DNA from: an uncultured cyanobacterium
GTDB taxonomy: Bacteria; Cyanobacteriota; Cyanobacteriia; CAKZMO01
DNA: 64,000 nucleotides
Assembly (NCBI GenBank): GCA_963719515.1
Contig: CAVRCJ010000006.1
Coordinates: 320,001 to 384,000 of the forward strand
Direction of reading: 5' to 3'
Below are positions 5,792-57,179 of the stretch, piece after piece. How positions within the stretch are numbered: the stretch's first letter is position 1; each line of letters starts with the position of its first letter. The translations under genes were made by a program, and so were the position numbers. The notes beneath the pieces are model-generated. The model was not told the origin of the DNA, searched no databases, and saw nothing but the letters and a program-made list of their open reading frames with translations.

Positions 5792-6336
5792 TTGAGCAAG
5801 ACAGGCTCCGAATTCGAGTCAATTCACATTCTAATTGGTCGCTTCCTTGCCGATCGCCATTCCCCTGCTCCGCTCGATACGGCTCGCATCTTAGGCAACA
5901 ACCCGAAATTTGACTGGGGAGAGGGGATGCCGCTCGAAAAGGTGATCGACTCCCCAGAAGCCTTCGATGCCCTAATGCTCAACCCGTCGCTGTTTCGCAA
6001 CGCGATCGCCATCATCGAGCCTTGGGAGCACGTCGGCTATAACCGTTTAGGGGAGCACGTGCGAGCCTCCGAAAACGTGGCCTACCTGGCGCAGACTATT
6101 GCAGACTGCGACTCGGTGCTGTTTCCGATGTGGTCGTCAGGGCCGTTCGACCTAGACAAACTTATCCCGGTAATCAGCTCAGGGCTGGCGATCGGCGTGG
6201 AAGGCGGAGATCCTCCGGTGCGCAACCCAGCTACCTTCGAGGGCTCAAACGCCTCCCAAGCCGAGATGATTGCCCTCACCGAGTATGTTGACTTTGAGAC
6301 TAAGGAAGTGCGGCGCTCGTTTACAGAAGACGTCGT
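5792..6336 (+). pseudogene. Hypothetical protein fragment cut by the IS200/IS605-type element
   Basis: ORF 5792..6403 looks like real coding sequence, but its last ~20 codons are read from the element's left end starting at ~6337. Confidence 0.55.
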
Positions 6337-6391
6337 AAAGCCCACTCCTTTAGGGGTGGGATATAAGGCGGCGAGCCAGAGGCGAGCAATT

Positions 6392-6526
6392 CTATTCCTC
6401 TAATCGCAGCCGATCTATCCATTCCTCTATGAGTTGGGTCATGGTTTTGTCCCGTTCTTTTGCAATACTTCTAAGCTTTTGCAGTCTTTGCTCAGACAGC
6501 CTGATGGTAAAGTTCTTTTTTGTCAT
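6392..6526 (-). CDS. 44-aa ribbon-helix-helix (CopG-like) DNA-binding protein
   Basis: Manual translation MTKKNFTIRLSEQRLQKLRSIAKERDKTMTQLIEEWIDRLRLEE*: a beta-strand (FTIRL) followed by two amphipathic helices. Too short for the ORF track. Confidence 0.8.
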   Translation of the reverse strand: MTKKNFTIRLSEQRLQKLRSIAKERDKTMTQLIEEWIDRLRLEE

Positions 6527-6570
6527 CTCGCATGTGCATTGTATGTGCGTTTATGCTAGCATGACAATAA

Positions 6571-6870
6571 GTTCTTCAACATACTCAAGGTTCGGCGGGT
6601 TCGGCTGAGAAGTTCAGCCGGTAAAGCTTTGAGCGTACCGAAAGGATGTAGCTTAGCAGTTTAGACGGGTAAAACAGAGCCGCGAGCGGTAAAATGCCGG
6701 GTTCGACATTGTCTGCAAAGCCTAAAGGAAGAAAACCGTCTTCGGTTGCTTGTGGAAACACAACCAGGCAGGGCGTTGTCTGATGGGAGAGTAGATGTTA
6801 GACAGGCTCAGCCTGCATTCTACGCCGGTATCCCAGAATCCCACGCGCTTTAGCCGTGGGAGTGCGTCAA
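6571..6870 (+). ncRNA. Putative structured RNA inside the IS200/IS605-type element
   Basis: No convincing ORF. Many nested stems: 6584-6592/6625-6633, 6602-6620, agacgg/ccgtct, GAAA-capped hairpins, caggc/gcctg, tgtctgat/gttagaca. An extended -10-like TGcTAGCAT lies just upstream. Confidence 0.55.
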
Positions 6871-6914
6871 ATCGGTGCCGGGAGTACGTTACGGCAAAAC
6901 GCCAACCTATACCT

Positions 6915-7328
6915 ATGCCATCGCCTTTCATTTCGCCCAACGATATCCTAGAGGCCGCTCGGCAGATTCGCCCGGAACTTCCCGAGCTGCTGCCCGCTGA
7001 GTCCGTCGCTCGCTTCGATCGTCAGCTTGCTGACTACCTCGCTCAGGCTCACAGTGGCGAAGCCGTCCATGAGCAGGTTCTTGAGCTACTGCAAAGCGAC
7101 CCCGAGACCGAAGACTGGCTACTGGAGACCTTTGGACCCCGCCGGGTGGCTAAAGGAGAAACCATGCGGGGTGGCTATCAGGGGTTGCCCGGCAGCATCA
7201 GCGCGATTGGCGCTCAGAAGTATGTCTGCCCCGAGGGCAATGACTACACCCGATTTTTGCGCTCCGCCGGCGATGTCCCCCGCTGTAAGACTCACGGTTG
7301 TTTGCTGGTTCCCGCTAGCGAGGTGTAG
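6915..7328 (+). CDS. Hypothetical protein with a C-terminal Cys/His (possible Zn-binding) motif
   Basis: In-frame ATG at 6915; the upstream extension in the track lies in the IS end. Helical N-terminus, YQGLPG linker, YVCP...CKTHGC. Stop abuts the next ATG. Confidence 0.75.
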   Translation: MPSPFISPNDILEAARQIRPELPELLPAESVARFDRQLADYLAQAHSGEAVHEQVLELLQSDPETEDWLLETFGPRRVAKGETMRGGYQGLPGSISAIGAQKYVCPEGNDYTRFLRSAGDVPRCKTHGCLLVPASEV

Positions 7329-12273: not shown

Positions 12274-12750
12274 TTAAACGCTCAAGAGGCGGTCTAGAAT
12301 CTGCTGACTTAAGCTATTTACCTGGCCCTCTAAAGTAGCCATAGCAGACGTCCGCTGTTCCTCAAGCTCTGTTTGAACTTGTTCACGCTGCGCTTGAGCC
12401 TCTTGCTGCGCTTTTGCGATCTCCTGGGACGCAATCTGCTGTGCCTCAGCCTGAGCGTTGGTTACAATCTCTTGAGTGCGACGCCGCGTTGACGCTAGCT
12501 CACTCTCATATTGCTCGGCTAGCTTCTTTGCTTTGGATAGCCGCTCTTCAGCAGCGGTAATACTATCGCGCACGAGTCCTTCGCGCTCGTCAATCATTCG
12601 GCCCAACGGCTTATAGAAAAGCGCATTTAGTGCGGCAACTAGCAGTAAAAATTGAACCGCCATCAGCGGCAGAGTCGCGTCGAGGTCAAACAGTCCACCG
12701 GCTTCTTCAGCCGCTGCCTCTACCGCGAATAAAATCGTCCAGCAGGTCAT
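12274..12750 (-). CDS. atpF2: F0 ATP synthase subunit b' (cyanobacterial atpG)
   Basis: [17 protein letters not shown]; operon position; start placed at MTCW. Confidence 0.95.
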
Positions 12751-46009: not shown

Positions 46010-46420
46010 ATGACCTACAACAAGGGCTATCGCTGTGTTTACAGCTTGAACATACACTTAGTGCTTGTAACTAAATACCGGCTTAACATCATTGACAAGC
46101 CAATTCAAGAGCGTCTCTACGAGATTTTTGCTGATACCTGCGAGAAGTGGAGTAGCAACCTTGTCGAGATAAACGGAGAAGCAGACCACGTTCACTTATT
46201 GATTAGCTATCCACCGGACGTGCAGCTTAGCAAACTGGTAAACAACCTGAAGACCGTGTCGAGCAGATTGATTCGTAAGGAGTTTGAAGAGCGTGTTGCA
46301 AAAGCGTATCGAAAACGGGTGTTCTGGTCTGGGGCTTACTTTGTCGCTTCAACCGGCGGCGTCACCCTGGAGCAGGTCAAAGCCTATGTCGAGAATCAAC
46401 CAGGCGTCGAGCCTAGCTGA
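46010..46420 (+). CDS. tnpA: IS200/IS605 Y1 HUH transposase
   Basis: HLVLVTKYR, DHVHLL, VKAYVENQ. Confidence 0.96.
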   Translation: MTYNKGYRCVYSLNIHLVLVTKYRLNIIDKPIQERLYEIFADTCEKWSSNLVEINGEADHVHLLISYPPDVQLSKLVNNLKTVSSRLIRKEFEERVAKAYRKRVFWSGAYFVASTGGVTLEQVKAYVENQPGVEPS

Positions 46421-54712: not shown

Positions 54713-55242
54713 TGACCTTACCCCGAGAAAGTGGACATTCCAGAAGAGAGGATAAACAAGGAGAATGTTCACATGAGTCAGAAACCACGTCGAAAATTTA
54801 CAGCGGAGCAGAAAGCGGAAGCGGTCCGCATTGTTGAGCAGTCAGGTAAACCTATCAGCCGAGTGGCAAAGGAGATGGGGTTAACCGAAAGCGCATTGCG
54901 CAACTGGGTGAAGCAATCGAAGGTTGACCGCCAGCAGTCTCCTGGGGGGTCGCTAATTTCTAGTGAGCGGGAGGAGCTCAATACCTTGCGCCGAGAGCTC
55001 AAGCGGGTTCGGATGGAACGAGATTTTCTAAAAAAGGCGGCGACCTTCTTTGCCAAGGAAAGCTCAAACCCTATGAGCTGATTGGCGCGGAGAAGGAGAA
55101 TTTCCCAATTGACATGATGTGCCAAGTGCTAGGCGTTTCGAGGAGTGGCTACTATGCCTGGTGTCAGCACAGGGCGTCCGCCAGAGAAAAGGAGAATGAG
55201 ATTTTGTCTGAGCAGATTCAACAGATTTATAGAAGTCGCCGT
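54713..55242 (+). mobile_element. IS3 family element, truncated (IRL, orfA, start of orfB)
   Basis: TGaccttaccccgagaaagtggaca end; A6G slippery site at 55030-55036; orfB start MCQVLGVSRSGYYAW cut at 55242. Confidence 0.9.
54773..55081 (+). CDS. IS3 family transposase OrfA
   Basis: RRKFTAEQKAEAV, HTH VAKEMGLTESALRNW, ERDFLKKAATFFAKE. Confidence 0.92.
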   Translation: MSQKPRRKFTAEQKAEAVRIVEQSGKPISRVAKEMGLTESALRNWVKQSKVDRQQSPGGSLISSEREELNTLRRELKRVRMERDFLKKAATFFAKESSNPMS

Positions 55243-56588
55243 AAAACCCCTCCGCTTTAGGTGTGGGATATAAGGCGGTGAGCGTGGCGAATATATTCAC
55301 ACTTTACACGGCGATTGTTAGACTGTAAGTATGGTTCAAAAGGCTTACCGCTATCGCTTCTATCCTACTGCTGAACAAGAACAACTCTTGCGCCGGACAA
55401 TGGGGTGTACTCGCCTGGTTTACAACCGCGCTTTGGCGGCAAGGACTGAGGCTTGGTACCAGAAGCAAGAGCGCGTCGGTTACGCTCAAACCTCGTCGAT
55501 GCTGACGCAGTGGAAAAAAGAGGAGGGCCTCGAATTTCTTACTGAGGTTAGCTCGGTTCCCCTTCAGCAGGGGCTGAGGCATCTGCAGACCGCCTTCACT
55601 AACTTCTTCGCCGGTCGGGCTAAGTATCCCAACTTCAAAAAGAAGCGCAGCGGCGGTAGCGCAGAGTTTACCAAGGCGGCGTTCAAGTTTAGAGAGGGTC
55701 AGGTGTACTTGGCCAAGTGCTCTAAACCTCTGCCCATTCGATGGTCTAGGGCGCTTCCGAAAGATGCCGCACCATCGACCATCACGGTCAAGCTGACGCC
55801 TGCAGGCCGGTGGTTTGTGTCGCTGTTGGTGGAGGTAGACATTGAGCCACTGCCGGTATCGCCTAACAAAGTTGGCCTGGACTTGGGCATCACCAGTCTG
55901 CTCACGCTGAGCACCGGCGAGAAGATTGCCAACCCCAAGGGCTTCAGGGCCAAGTACCGTAAGCTACGAAAAGCTCTAAAGGCCCTTAGCCGCAAGCAAA
56001 AGGGCTCGAACAACCGATACAAAGCGCGGCTCAGGGTGGCCAGGGTCCACGCCGAGATAGCCGATGCCCGCAAAGACCTGCTTCCCTTCGGGACGCTTCG
56101 CGAACACAAGCTGACAACCCGGCTGGTGCGCGAAAACCAAGCGATCGCCGTCGAAGACTTAGCAGTGGGGAACATGGTCCGAAATCACAAATTGGCGCGC
56201 GCCATCAGTGATGCAAGCTGGGGGGAACTGGTGCGGCAGCTTACCTACAAGTGCGAATGGTACGGGCGGGAGCTGGTTAAGATAGACCGATGGTTCCCTA
56301 GCTCTAAGCGCTGTGGCAGCTGCGGCCATGTCGTAGATAAGCTGCCGTTGAACGTTCGAGAGTGGCAGTGCCCTGAGTGCGACGTGAAGCACGATAGGGA
56401 CGTAAACGCTGCTGTAAACGTATTGGCCGCTGGTCTAGCGGTGTCAGTCTGTGGAGCGACCGTAAGACCTGTTGGCGAAGCCTGCGCTTCGCGCATAGAG
56501 AGCAAATCTCGGAAGGCAGGTGCTACGAAGCAGAAAAGTCTTGGAGCAATCCAAGAATCCCACGTGCTTTAGCCGTGGGAGTAGTCAA
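55243..56588 (+). mobile_element. IS200/IS605 family, IS1341-type (tnpB only) element
   Basis: Left-end hairpin after CCGT; right end cccacgtgctttagccgtgggagtagTCAA. Confidence 0.9.
55331..56572 (+). CDS. tnpB: RNA-guided endonuclease TnpB with two small in-frame insertions
   Basis: AYRYRFYPT, RuvC GLDLG / AVEDL / DRDVNAA, Zn finger CGSC..CPEC. Confidence 0.96.
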   Translation: MVQKAYRYRFYPTAEQEQLLRRTMGCTRLVYNRALAARTEAWYQKQERVGYAQTSSMLTQWKKEEGLEFLTEVSSVPLQQGLRHLQTAFTNFFAGRAKYPNFKKKRSGGSAEFTKAAFKFREGQVYLAKCSKPLPIRWSRALPKDAAPSTITVKLTPAGRWFVSLLVEVDIEPLPVSPNKVGLDLGITSLLTLSTGEKIANPKGFRAKYRKLRKALKALSRKQKGSNNRYKARLRVARVHAEIADARKDLLPFGTLREHKLTTRLVRENQAIAVEDLAVGNMVRNHKLARAISDASWGELVRQLTYKCEWYGRELVKIDRWFPSSKRCGSCGHVVDKLPLNVREWQCPECDVKHDRDVNAAVNVLAAGLAVSVCGATVRPVGEACASRIESKSRKAGATKQKSLGAIQESHVL

Positions 56589-56699
56589 ATCTAAGTAAAT
56601 TTACTTTACAGGTTCTTATCGCTACAGCAGGCGAAAAGGCTCTATCTTGTAGTCATAGGTGCTCACCCTAAGTCGTCAAAATATCGAGTTTTTTCACCC

Positions 56700-57179
56700 G
56701 TGAGTTGCGCTAAGAGCCCCGAAACCGATCCCCCAGACTTCACCGGACAGAACCTAACCGGGCATGACTTCTCCAACCAAGATCTTCGAGAGGCAGTTTT
56801 CACGGGGGCTATTCTTGTAGGGGCTAATTTCTCCCGCGCCTGTCTCGACGGCGCTACTTTAGACAGGGCTGACCTCACCCAAGCAAATTTCAGGTACGCC
56901 CATATGGAAGGGGCGAGCTTGAAGCGGACCTATCTCGACAGAACAATATTCAGATGCGCCTTTTTGTCCTACTCCGATTTTGGCAACGCGGCGCTGATTG
57001 ACGTCGATTTCACCCGCGCCGACCTCAGCGGTGCGGTAATTAGCGATACGCGGCTGAAAGCCTGTCACATCACTAATGCCGTGCTGCCAGACTGGAGCAT
57101 CGTCTACGAAACTCAGCTCACCCTCGAAGGGGGGTACCTGATGAATTTTGAGAATAATGCCCTGGCCACCTTTGACTAG
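56700..57179 (+). CDS. Pentapeptide repeat protein
   Basis: Repeated A(D/N)L/F-x-x pentapeptides. Confidence 0.9.
   Translation: MSCAKSPETDPPDFTGQNLTGHDFSNQDLREAVFTGAILVGANFSRACLDGATLDRADLTQANFRYAHMEGASLKRTYLDRTIFRCAFLSYSDFGNAALIDVDFTRADLSGAVISDTRLKACHITNAVLPDWSIVYETQLTLEGGYLMNFENNALATFD

What the first reader, a model, noticed from the sequence alone, without database searches (positions are those of the whole stretch)
6337..6870. TnpB-less IS200/IS605 element carrying an RHH-like gene and a ~300-nt structured RNA that runs into the right end
Seen: both ends of this 534-bp element nearly match those of the tnpB element at 55243-56588. Its interior holds only a divergent 44-aa RHH-like gene and a non-coding segment (6571-6830) that does not resemble the 3' end of either tnpB in the window; similarity starts only ~40 nt from the right end. 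The segment pairs extensively: 6584-6592 with 6625-6633 encloses a perfect cggctga/tcagccg hairpin; ccGAAAgg and tgtgGAAAcaca tetraloops; long-range agacgg/ccgtct; caggcagggc/gctcagcctg enclosing tgtctgat/gttagaca, whose loop (gtaga) can pair with downstream tctac as a pseudoknot. Established: in IS200/IS605 elements the RNA reading through the right end uses flanking DNA as the TnpB guide. Inference: this is an RNA-cargo transposon rather than a decayed tnpB. It may be a distinct guide scaffold for a nuclease supplied in trans, or a catalytic RNA, with predicted guide starting atcggtgccgggagta (6871 onward).
Basis: partly seen in the sequence, partly recalled or inferred. Interest (0 to 1): 0.9.

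Follow-up and report, generated by a model that had tools for sequence, protein, structure and literature searches.

The report
Guide-RNA mini-transposon with structured leader
This small jumping element has lost its DNA-cutting enzyme gene but keeps a repressor gene and a 300-base folded RNA: the back of that RNA is the enzyme's guide-RNA scaffold, and the front is a conserved RNA module, in no catalogue, seen here only on such enzyme-less elements of cyanobacteria.

Summary
The element is real, but its limits are 6325-6870 (546 bp), inserted after TTAC, not 6337-6870. It is a non-autonomous IS605-group element. It holds a left end 97% identical to that of a tnpA+tnpB copy elsewhere in the genome, an Arc-like RHH gene (6392-6526, minus), divergent promoters, and an RNA gene (about 6570-6870, plus) that runs out through the right end.

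The RNA has two parts. The last 116 nt match the 3' end of tnpB elements in this genome, including the loop-to-tail pseudoknot, so this part is the ordinary TnpB guide (omega) RNA core. The first about 178 nt have no counterpart in any tnpB element tested.

The whole RNA recurs in roughly 400-bp protein-less elements of other cyanobacteria and metagenomes. Covariation is strong: 77 pairs, 94% paired, 51 with changes on both sides. Nothing in Rfam matches. Its first sub-domain (D1) also sits at the front of other protein-less element families that carry different cores.

Protein-less PATEs that encode omega RNAs, and Arc repressors in IS605 elements, are both already in print. The structured 5' domain is not, and its function is unknown. 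Verdict: a new variant of a known kind.

The parts
6321..6324 (+). Target/TAM tetranucleotide TTAC directly 5' of the element
   Evidence: TTAC precedes the left end in the window and in most relatives printed. A script found a TTAC-bounded left end in 22 of 26 copies. An environmental contig with a different left flank also joins at ...TTAC| (table 7).
6325..6395 (+). Left end (LE) with a subterminal hairpin at 6341-6348/6353-6360
   Evidence: 97% identical over 77 nt to the LE of the tnpA+tnpB element at G000:C16:8968-9044. The hairpin was read.
6392..6526 (-). arc-like ribbon-helix-helix gene (44 aa)
   Evidence: ORF. Sub-threshold Pfam hits to DUF6364, CopG_antitoxin, Antitox_RHH, RHH_10 and RHH_1. 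82% nt identity to the RHH gene of about 10 RHH+tnpB elements in the genome. Arc in IS605 elements is described in bioRxiv 10.64898/2026.09.24.754181 (abstract and passages).
6527..6569 (.). Divergent promoter region. The minus-strand promoter for arc is TTGTCA-18-TACAAT (6567..6538). Plus-strand -10 candidates are TATGCT/TAGCAT (6552-6562). ATGTGC is repeated at 6532-6537 and 6543-6548 and is a possible Arc operator.
   Evidence: Consensus scan. The TATGCTA.CAT motif also stands just before the tnpB start of the C10-type element. Relatives carry TATAAT-, TAGAAT- or TAAAAT-like boxes 7-10 nt before the RNA start. The operator assignment is inference.
6570..6747 (+). 5' domain of the RNA. D1 is about 6570-6651 (helices 6571-6576/6642-6647, 6585-6591/6626-6632 and 6601-6608/6614-6621). 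D2 is about 6657-6744 (helices 6657-6659/6742-6744, 6663-6668/6736-6741 and 6677-6687/6696-6704).
   Evidence: Covariation. Covariance model R1 finds one copy in the own genome and nothing significant in tnpB-bearing loci. No Rfam match.
6748..6870 (+). TnpB omega-RNA core and right end. Helices: 6750-6754/6759-6763, 6764-6771/6776-6783, 6784-6788/6831-6835, 6791-6796/6818-6823 and 6803-6805/6813-6815. The RE hairpin is 6839-6849/6852-6861. A pseudoknot joins loop 6772-6775 to tail 6865-6868. The element ends in TCAA at 6867-6870.
   Evidence: The profile of the RNA matches C16 and 10 C10-type tnpB elements only over positions 185/186-301. Alignment. A TnpB C-terminal remnant shows in tblastn. 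Pseudoknot counts. A 280-nt contig in run X1 stops at 6870.
6871..6890 (+). Predicted guide: flanking DNA transcribed by read-through
   Evidence: Inferred from the position of the omega-RNA core at the right end. No 3' end has been mapped.

Best explanation
Window 6325-6870 is a non-autonomous IS605-group element. It has no transposase gene and no TnpB gene. It carries an Arc-like RHH repressor gene and an RNA gene with its own promoter.

The RNA is about 300 nt and starts near 6565-6571. Its 3' 116 nt are the omega-RNA core of the TnpB clade found on contigs C16 and C10 of this genome. Transcription runs out through TCAA at 6870 into the flank, which would supply the guide.

Inferred mechanism:
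- A Y1 TnpA made elsewhere in the genome excises and inserts the element 3' of TTAC.
- A TnpB made by other copies binds the RNA core and cuts the emptied TTAC+flank site, so that the copy is restored by recombination.
- Arc represses the divergent promoters.

The 5' 178 nt form a conserved folded domain (D1+D2) that occurs only on protein-less elements. I take it to be a leader that lets a free-standing guide RNA survive and load in the absence of the tnpB mRNA, through 5'-end protection, folding help, or recruitment of TnpB or a host factor.

What is shown: the element's anatomy, homology of the core to tnpB elements, conservation and covariation of the whole RNA, and the absence of the 5' domain from the tnpB elements tested. 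What is inferred: transcription limits, use of TnpB and TnpA in trans, the role of Arc, and the role of the 5' domain.
For: Ends and target:
- The left end is 97% identical to that of the tnpA+tnpB copy on C16. The right end is 83% identical to C16 and 77% to the C10-type copies.
- Pfam confirms Y1_Tnp and OrfB_IS605 plus Cas12f1-like_TNB in those copies.
- PF01797 (Y1 transposase) gives 14 matches in the genome.
- TTAC stands before the element here and in relatives.

Core:
- The nhmmer profile of the RNA hits C16 and 10 C10-type tnpB elements only over positions 185/186-301.
- tblastn finds the TnpB C-terminal remnant.
- The loop-to-tail pseudoknot is 96% paired, with a G-C to A-U switch in 7 of 20 sequences.

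Conservation of the RNA:
- Homologues at E < 1e-5 in 6 of 400 other genomes of the class.
- 10 loci in genome contigs, all cyanobacterial MAGs.
- 23 of 37 metagenome pattern loci confirmed by nhmmer.

Structure (20 sequences, 77 pairs):
- 94.3% of cells paired, against 78.6% in shuffles.
- 51 pairs with a change on both sides; 0 of 500 shuffles reach any of the five measures.
- Slid controls give 34-47% paired.
- G-U cells number 158 against 21 A-C cells, so the fold is on the plus strand.

Promoter: -10-like boxes lie 7-10 nt before the conserved 5' end in relatives.

5' domain:
- R1 finds 1 copy in the own genome.
- It matches 5 of 150 other genomes.
- It finds nothing significant in tnpB-bearing loci with filters off.
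- The D1 model R2 matches 11 of 150 other genomes. None of the 20 such loci examined holds a tnpB.
- No tnpB lies inside any element. Of 57 loci, 1 has an unrelated tnpB outside the element on the other strand.

Cognate TnpB: relatives at 59-69% aa identity occur in 3 of 5 carrier genomes.

Other copies: contigs 97-98% identical, one with a different left flank, occur in four public runs. Two of these are on record as RNA libraries.

Printed precedent: PATEs encoding omega RNAs used in trans; Arc repressing the tnpB promoter.
Against: - No strand-specific transcript data exist. The contigs in RNA libraries cannot show strand, ends or even transcription.
- The plus-strand promoter of the window copy is weak by consensus. 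The scan found only the minus-strand one.
- 2 of 5 carrier genomes (G098, 91% complete; G143, 99% complete) hold only TnpBs 31-33% identical to the C16 type.
- In G061, G075 and G327 the cores of the protein-less elements are only 50-73% identical to those of the co-resident cognate tnpB elements, which also end in a different tail motif. Loading of TnpB in trans is therefore not assured.
- The 5' domain keeps invariant single-stranded motifs. That is more than a simple protective hairpin needs and hints at a specific partner I could not identify.
- The RHH assignment rests on Pfam hits below the gathering score.
Confidence: 0.6

Rival explanations
1. The 5' domain is an independent functional RNA that merely rides on the element, for example a regulator, a protein sponge or sensor, or a ribozyme. 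On this reading the omega-RNA core is kept mainly because it overlaps the right end needed for transposition.
For: The 5' domain is as conserved as the core and has invariant unpaired motifs. D1 is modular and sits at the front of other protein-less families with different cores. Two carrier genomes lack a cognate-clade TnpB.
Against: D1 and D2 were found only inside IS605-type elements and always upstream of an omega-like core. The core helices and the pseudoknot, which lie beyond the right-end hairpin, also covary, so the core is under RNA-level selection too. No Rfam ribozyme or riboswitch matches.
Confidence: 0.15
2. The RNA guides an effector other than the IS-borne TnpB, such as a domesticated TnpB relative, with the 5' domain as the platform specific to that effector.
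For: The protein-less lineage is old and evolves separately from co-resident tnpB elements. It occurs in genomes without a cognate-clade TnpB.
Against: No conserved protein gene is linked to the elements, and their flanks differ from copy to copy. Insertion sites vary, as for a mobile element. No candidate effector was identified.
Confidence: 0.1
3. The conserved fold acts in the single-stranded DNA transposition intermediate, on the top strand, and not in RNA.
For: IS200/IS605 elements move as top-strand ssDNA (established knowledge; Meers preprint passages). The strand bias of G-T over A-C pairs fits the top strand as well as the RNA.
Against: A promoter-like box is conserved at a fixed distance before the first helix. 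Nearly invariant G-U pairs and the loop-tail pseudoknot typical of omega RNAs fit RNA better. tnpB-bearing relatives transpose without this domain.
Confidence: 0.07
4. It is a decaying, internally deleted tnpB element whose interior is neutral junk.
For: The last roughly 90 nt still translate into a TnpB C-terminal remnant. The window copy is single in its genome.
Against: The interior is conserved across cyanobacterial families with 51 covarying pairs. It shows no similarity, by protein or by profile, to tnpB upstream of the core.
Confidence: 0.03
5. It is an IStron-like self-splicing element that removes itself from host transcripts.
For: The window copy lies in the sense direction within an open frame of 187+43 codons. 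IStrons join introns to TnpB guide RNAs.
Against: No group I or II intron match at E up to 10 in the window stretch or up to 1 in 10 relatives. The RNA has its own promoter. Most copies do not interrupt long open frames: only 2 of 22 have 100 aa or more spanning the site with 20 aa or more on both sides, and one of those is on the opposite strand.
Confidence: 0.02

Closest known systems
PATE-like, protein-less IS200/IS605 elements that encode omega RNAs (Geobacillus stearothermophilus; Meers et al., bioRxiv 10.1101/2023.03.14.532601; passages read)
   Same: Hairpin ends shared with autonomous copies. No transposase or nuclease gene. A guide-RNA scaffold at the right end that must be used by a TnpB made elsewhere. 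Mobilisation by TnpA in trans.
   Different: This element has an added 178-nt conserved, covarying 5' RNA domain with its own promoter, absent from the tnpB elements tested. It belongs to a long-lived lineage of 1-5 copies per genome spread over cyanobacterial families. The window copy also carries an arc gene, so it is not strictly protein-less.
TnpB omega RNA / reRNA of IS200/IS605 (e.g. ISDra2; PMC8612924 and PMC10097598 seen in search listings only; their structural details are recalled)
   Same: The last 116 nt are homologous to the 3' end of tnpB elements, end at the right-end boundary, read into the flank, and hold a pseudoknot next to the guide.
   Different: It is not embedded in a tnpB mRNA. 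It is transcribed from a promoter about 300 nt upstream and is extended by a non-coding structured domain.
Arc (RHH) repressors of IS605-family elements (Moon et al., bioRxiv 10.64898/2026.09.24.754181; abstract and passages read)
   Same: A small RHH gene divergent from the tnpB-side promoter. arc+tnpB elements of that layout occur about 10 times in this genome.
   Different: Here the promoter opposite arc drives an RNA gene, not tnpB. No cyanobacterial Arc and no Arc+RNA-only element is mentioned in that text: the terms 'cyanobacteri' and 'PATE' have 0 occurrences.
IStrons (group I intron plus TnpB omega RNA in IS605/IS607; bioRxiv 10.1101/2023.11.20.567912; passages read)
   Same: A large structured RNA cargo shares the element with the omega RNA.
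   Different: There is no intron signature, the RNA has its own promoter, and the copies are mostly intergenic.

Membership tests
IS200/IS605 family, non-autonomous (PATE-like) element | Subterminal hairpins at both ends, homologous to those of an element that encodes a Y1 TnpA | tested here: met
   The left end is 97% and the right end 83% identical to the C16 element, which encodes Y1_Tnp (E 1.4e-37) and TnpB.
IS200/IS605 family, non-autonomous (PATE-like) element | Insertion 3' of a fixed tetranucleotide, without terminal inverted repeats or target duplication | tested here: met
   TTAC precedes the left end in the window and in 22 of 26 copies by script. No TTAC repeat follows the right end. 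The 3' flanks all differ.
IS200/IS605 family, non-autonomous (PATE-like) element | No transposase or nuclease gene inside the element | tested here: met
   The only ORF with family hits is the 44-aa RHH. No TnpB similarity lies upstream of the core.
IS200/IS605 family, non-autonomous (PATE-like) element | Mobility: an empty site, or copies at different sites | tested here: inconclusive
   Relatives of the genus carry the two flanks on separate contigs, so no empty site was seen. A 97-98% identical arc-bearing copy with a different left flank occurs in runs X3 and X4. Family members sit in unrelated flanks.
TnpB omega RNA | Scaffold homologous to the 3' end of tnpB elements, ending at the right-end boundary | tested here: met
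   Profile positions 185/186-301 match C16 and 10 C10-type elements (E 1.6e-11 to 3e-9). Alignment.
TnpB omega RNA | Conserved secondary structure with a pseudoknot next to the guide | tested here: met
   Core helices are 92-98% paired with changes on both sides. The pseudoknot is 96% paired, but only one of its pairs covaries.
TnpB omega RNA | Transcribed, with a 3' guide taken from the flank | tested here: inconclusive
   Only contigs from four runs were available, with no strand or end information.
TnpB omega RNA | Binds TnpB and directs TAM-dependent DNA cleavage | not testable with these tools
   This needs pull-down and interference assays.
Arc/RHH transposon repressor | Ribbon-helix-helix fold | tested here: inconclusive
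   Five RHH-type Pfam families hit at E 5e-4 to 9e-3, all below their gathering scores. No structure was predicted.
Arc/RHH transposon repressor | Gene divergent from the promoter of the tnpB side, and binding there | tested here: inconclusive
   The layout is met: the minus-strand promoter at 6567..6538 overlaps the plus-strand -10 candidates. Binding was not testable.
Group I intron / IStron | Intron core detectable, and insertion in the sense direction in genes | tested here: not met
   No Rfam intron match. Most copies do not interrupt long open frames.
Any Rfam family | Match at or near a gathering score | tested here: not met
   0 matches at gathering scores in the window. The best hits in 6200-7000 are snoRNA- or sRNA-type chance hits at E 1.8-9.8. 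0 matches at E <= 1 in 10 relatives. Only a tRNA matched in 11 D1-bearing loci.

The most novel reading that the evidence does not exclude
The 5' domain, and D1 in particular, is a dedicated module of a long-lived lineage of protein-less 'guide-RNA-only' transposons. It lets them capture a TnpB (or another effector or host factor) made by unrelated insertion sequences, which makes them hyperparasites of the TnpA/TnpB system. The module is exchanged between element families with different omega-RNA cores.
Probability: 0.3. Interest if true: 0.8.

Novelty: new variant of a known kind. Interest (0 to 1): 0.62.

Why it matters
Guide-RNA-only derivatives of IS200/IS605 have so far been mentioned only in passing, as evidence that the system's parts are modular.

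This case shows such elements as an old, conserved lineage with an RNA domain of its own. That domain is about 180 nt long, is supported by covariation, matches no Rfam family, and was found only where the nuclease gene is missing. It is shared as a module between families with different scaffolds.

If the domain helps a free-standing guide RNA survive or load onto a nuclease in trans, two things follow:
- It would explain how protein-less elements persist.
- It could be of practical use for expressing TnpB guide RNAs.

The window copy also places an Arc repressor opposite a guide-RNA promoter, which extends the recently proposed role of Arc. Every step can be tested with ordinary assays in E. 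coli or a model cyanobacterium.

Tried and rejected
- Rfam, window at gathering scores: nothing. Stretch 6200-7000 at E <= 10: chance hits only. Ten relatives at E <= 1: nothing. Eleven D1 loci: one tRNA.
- ARAGORN on 6250-6950: no tRNA or tmRNA.
- BLASTN of the RNA in 60 relatives: only a solo right-end remnant on own contig C11.
- tblastn of three TnpBs against 6500-6900: only the C-terminal remnant.
- Empty site in genus relatives: the flanks lie on different contigs, so the site is unresolved.
Whether the window copy truncates a host gene therefore stays open; the only figure is 187+43 open codons across the site.
- Expression: only small shares in four runs, all kept as contigs. They show near-identical copies elsewhere but no transcript ends or strand. 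Parts without cover say nothing.
- Long-range pair 88-90/303-305 of the 11-sequence fold: not kept in the 20-sequence fold, so dropped.
- A scan of my own for further pseudoknots: noisy. Only the loop-tail pairing stood up. No convincing contact between the 5' domain and the core was found.
- Search for the 5' domain inside tnpB elements: none.
- The left-end picking script chose an inner TTAC for L072, L084 and L117 and found none for 4 copies. Junction frames for those copies are unreliable.
- Literature searches found no description of this RNA domain. The library lacks most subscription journals, and the Greek-letter term for the RNA cannot be searched directly.
- No structure prediction, complex prediction or protein-collection search was run.
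Full report
**What is at the coordinates.**
Reading 6100-7100 and 55100-56750 confirms that the flagged stretch shares both ends with the tnpB element at 55243-56588. The left end is 85% identical over 58 nt and the right end 91% over 43 nt.

The same junction, TTAC followed by the left end, is seen in the relatives printed. It is also seen in an environmental contig whose left flank differs from the window's (table 7). The element is therefore 6325-6870 (546 bp). Its target motif is TTAC, and it ends in TCAA.

**Relatives within the genome.**
The window lies on contig C6 of a 5.28-Mb, 21-contig genome.
- The best left-end match (97% over 77 nt) is an element on contig C16. It encodes a Y1 transposase on the minus strand and a TnpB on the plus strand (Pfam Y1_Tnp, OrfB_IS605 and Cas12f1-like_TNB).
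- The 44-aa ORF at 6392-6526 (minus strand) is 82% identical in DNA to a small gene in about ten 1.3-kb elements. In those elements it is divergent from tnpB and takes the place of tnpA.
- That ORF hits five ribbon-helix-helix Pfam families, all below their cut-offs.
- Such RHH genes in IS605 elements have just been described as Arc, a repressor of the tnpB promoter (bioRxiv 10.64898/2026.09.24.754181; abstract and passages read).
- A consensus scan finds a minus-strand promoter for the gene (TTGTCA-18-TACAAT, 6567..6538). It overlaps plus-strand -10 candidates (6552-6562). The motif of these candidates also stands just before the tnpB start codon in the arc+tnpB elements.
- PF01797 (Y1 transposase) gives 14 matches in the genome.

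**The non-coding part is a two-part RNA.**
BLASTN finds no second copy of 6570-6795 in the genome.

An alignment of right ends and a profile search show where the homology lies. The C16 element and ten C10-type tnpB elements match the RNA only over profile positions 185/186-301. That is the last 116 nt, from about 6750 onward. In that stretch tblastn still sees the C-terminal tail of TnpB, as expected for an omega RNA that overlaps the end of tnpB.

Upstream of it (6570-6747) I found no similarity to tnpB in any of three tests:
- translation;
- the sequence profile;
- a covariance model run with filters off over 15 loci, 13 of them tnpB-bearing. The only significant hit was a protein-less element (L123), and the next best was a 28-nt hairpin at E 0.04.

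**Relatives elsewhere.**
- BLASTN over 400 other genomes of the class found the whole RNA at 67-75% identity in six genomes of four families. The many hits between E 1e-3 and 0.1 in that table are short chance matches.
- A motif scan of one genome per prokaryote species gave 10 loci, all cyanobacterial MAGs: Elainellales, Coleofasciculaceae, Acaryochloris, Leptolyngbyaceae, Phormidium, an unclassified Cyanophyceae MAG and one MAG titled only 'uncultured bacterium'. By coordinates, at least five of them are the places already found.
- A motif scan of metagenomes, aimed at the 5' part alone, gave 37 loci. nhmmer confirmed 23 of them; the other 14 are chance matches.
- In every confirmed case the RNA sits in an element of roughly 380-450 bp. 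The order is TTAC, a left-end hairpin, a -10-like box 7-10 nt before the conserved RNA start, the 300-nt RNA, then the right end.
- None has an RHH gene or a tnpB inside it. tblastn with the RHH and the C16 TnpB found nothing in the 23 loci. tblastn with three TnpBs over 57 loci (166,822 nt, including the 14 chance loci) found one unrelated tnpB, outside the element and on the other strand.
- Some copies carry an extra hairpin of about 48 nt between the two parts, or an insertion in the second sub-domain.

**Structure.**
On 20 sequences (alignment A2), RNAalifold plus one hairpin that I added gives 77 pairs in 13 helices.
- 94.3% of cells are paired, against 78.6% in column shuffles.
- 51 pairs show changes on both sides.
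- 0 of 500 shuffles reach the observed value on any of the five measures.
- Sliding the partners by 1-3 columns gives 34-47% paired.
- G-U cells outnumber A-C cells 158 to 21, so the fold belongs to the plus strand.
- A pseudoknot joins the loop of hairpin 6764-6783 to the tail just before TCAA. It is 96% paired, with a G-C to A-U switch in 7 sequences, possibly from a single event. The tnpB elements can form it too.

The single-sequence fold alone is weak evidence (z -2.18 on the plus strand and -1.91 on the minus strand).

**The 5' domain is modular and confined to protein-less elements.**
- Model R1 of the 5' domain (176 positions) finds one copy in the own genome. It matches 5 of 150 other genomes. 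One of these is a weak hit that covers only the first sub-domain, D1, in a different short element with a core of the 55243-type.
- Model R2, built from D1 alone, matches 11 of 150 other genomes, with up to 16 places in one genome.
- I examined 20 such loci. D1 sits at or near the front of RNAs in further IS605-type short elements that have other middle parts and other cores. None of the 20 holds a tnpB by tblastn at E < 1e-5. Rfam knows none of them.

**Is a partner nuclease at hand?**
In the own genome, yes: the C16 and C10-type TnpBs share the core.

Among five other carrier genomes the picture is mixed:
- Three have TnpBs 59-69% identical to the C16 type.
- Two have only 31-33% relatives. 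One of these genomes is 99% complete.
- Cores of the protein-less elements are 69-92% alike among themselves.
- They are 50-83% alike to tnpB-linked cores. Those of G061, G075 and G327 differ from their co-resident tnpB elements in the tail motif.

The protein-less lineage therefore looks old and independent, and it is not a set of recent deletion products. Use of TnpB in trans remains an inference.

**Other readings.**
- An intron-like role is unlikely. There is no intron match, the RNA has its own promoter, and most copies do not split long open frames (the left end was mis-picked or not found for 7 of 26 copies).
- A role of the fold in the single-stranded DNA intermediate cannot be excluded from strand bias alone. 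The promoter and the omega-type pseudoknot favour RNA.
- Contigs 97-98% identical to parts of the element occur in four public runs. One ends at 6870 and one carries the arc gene behind a different TTAC flank. This shows other copies exist. It does not show expression.

**Comparison with what is known.**
- The Meers et al. preprint says that PATE elements often encode omega RNAs that TnpB from other elements must act on in trans (passage read).
- Arc is described in the Moon et al. preprint.
- RHH-TnpB pairs of archaea are discussed in PMC10691335 (passages).
- I found no description of the 5' domain in five full-text searches or in Rfam. The library misses most subscription journals.
- Earlier notes of this scan describe similar 'structured leaders' on gene-less elements in other phyla, and in one phylum also ahead of tnpB genes. 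These are unchecked leads. In the cyanobacterial loci examined here I saw D1 only on tnpB-less elements.

**Verdict.**
The element is a known kind, an omega-RNA-bearing non-autonomous IS605 derivative, here with an Arc gene. It carries a well-supported, undescribed RNA domain whose function is open.

Noticed in passing
L026:1501-1923 (G000:C15:130874-131296); also G000:C5:165974-166383, C14:161643-162055, C3:471430-471841: A second family of roughly 410-bp protein-less elements occurs in the same genome (4 copies). Each has a TATAAT-like box, a different non-coding 5' region of about 200 nt, and the omega-RNA core and right end of the window's tnpB element at 55243-56588. Model R1 does not match them.
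   Followed up: partly
window 55243-56588: The tnpB-only element (413-aa TnpB, 55331-56572) sits inside what reads like an IS3-type transposase frame. It is preceded by TTAT, not TTAC.
   Followed up: no
L007:1280-2930 (G000:C10:496250-497900) and about 9 more copies: These arc(RHH)+tnpB elements of about 1.3 kb have the two start codons only about 20 nt apart, so each promoter lies inside the other gene. Their left end resembles that of many metagenomic protein-less elements. A same-class relative (G022) holds more than 20 copies of the RHH region.
   Followed up: partly
L123:1501-1594, L126:1501-1594; L145-L168: The D1 sub-domain sits at or near the front of several other families of short IS605-type elements, with up to 16 places in one genome. 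Their middle parts and cores differ, and in some D1 lies about 55 nt downstream of the TATAAT box.
   Followed up: partly
L091:419-766, L093:1317-1663, L104:1414-1765, L105:40-385, L116:456-802; L127, L128, L076: There are variants of the RNA. Some have an extra hairpin of about 48 nt between the 5' domain and the core. Others have a UUCG-capped hairpin of about 25 nt inserted in the second sub-domain. L091 and L104 share the same 3' flank although their elements differ.
   Followed up: no
G061:C50:10319-10529 and 12364-12574 (L119, L124): Two copies of the protein-less element lie 2,045 bp apart on one contig. The same genome has at least three more copies, one of them truncated at the 5' domain.
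   Followed up: no
L032 (G000:C11:319677-319751): A solo right-end remnant of about 75 nt lies next to a cytochrome P450-like gene. It is 83% identical to 6796-6870, with compensatory changes in the right-end hairpin.
   Followed up: partly
window 46034-46399: A Y1 (IS200-type) transposase gene lies in the window itself. It is one of 14 PF01797 matches in the genome.
   Followed up: no
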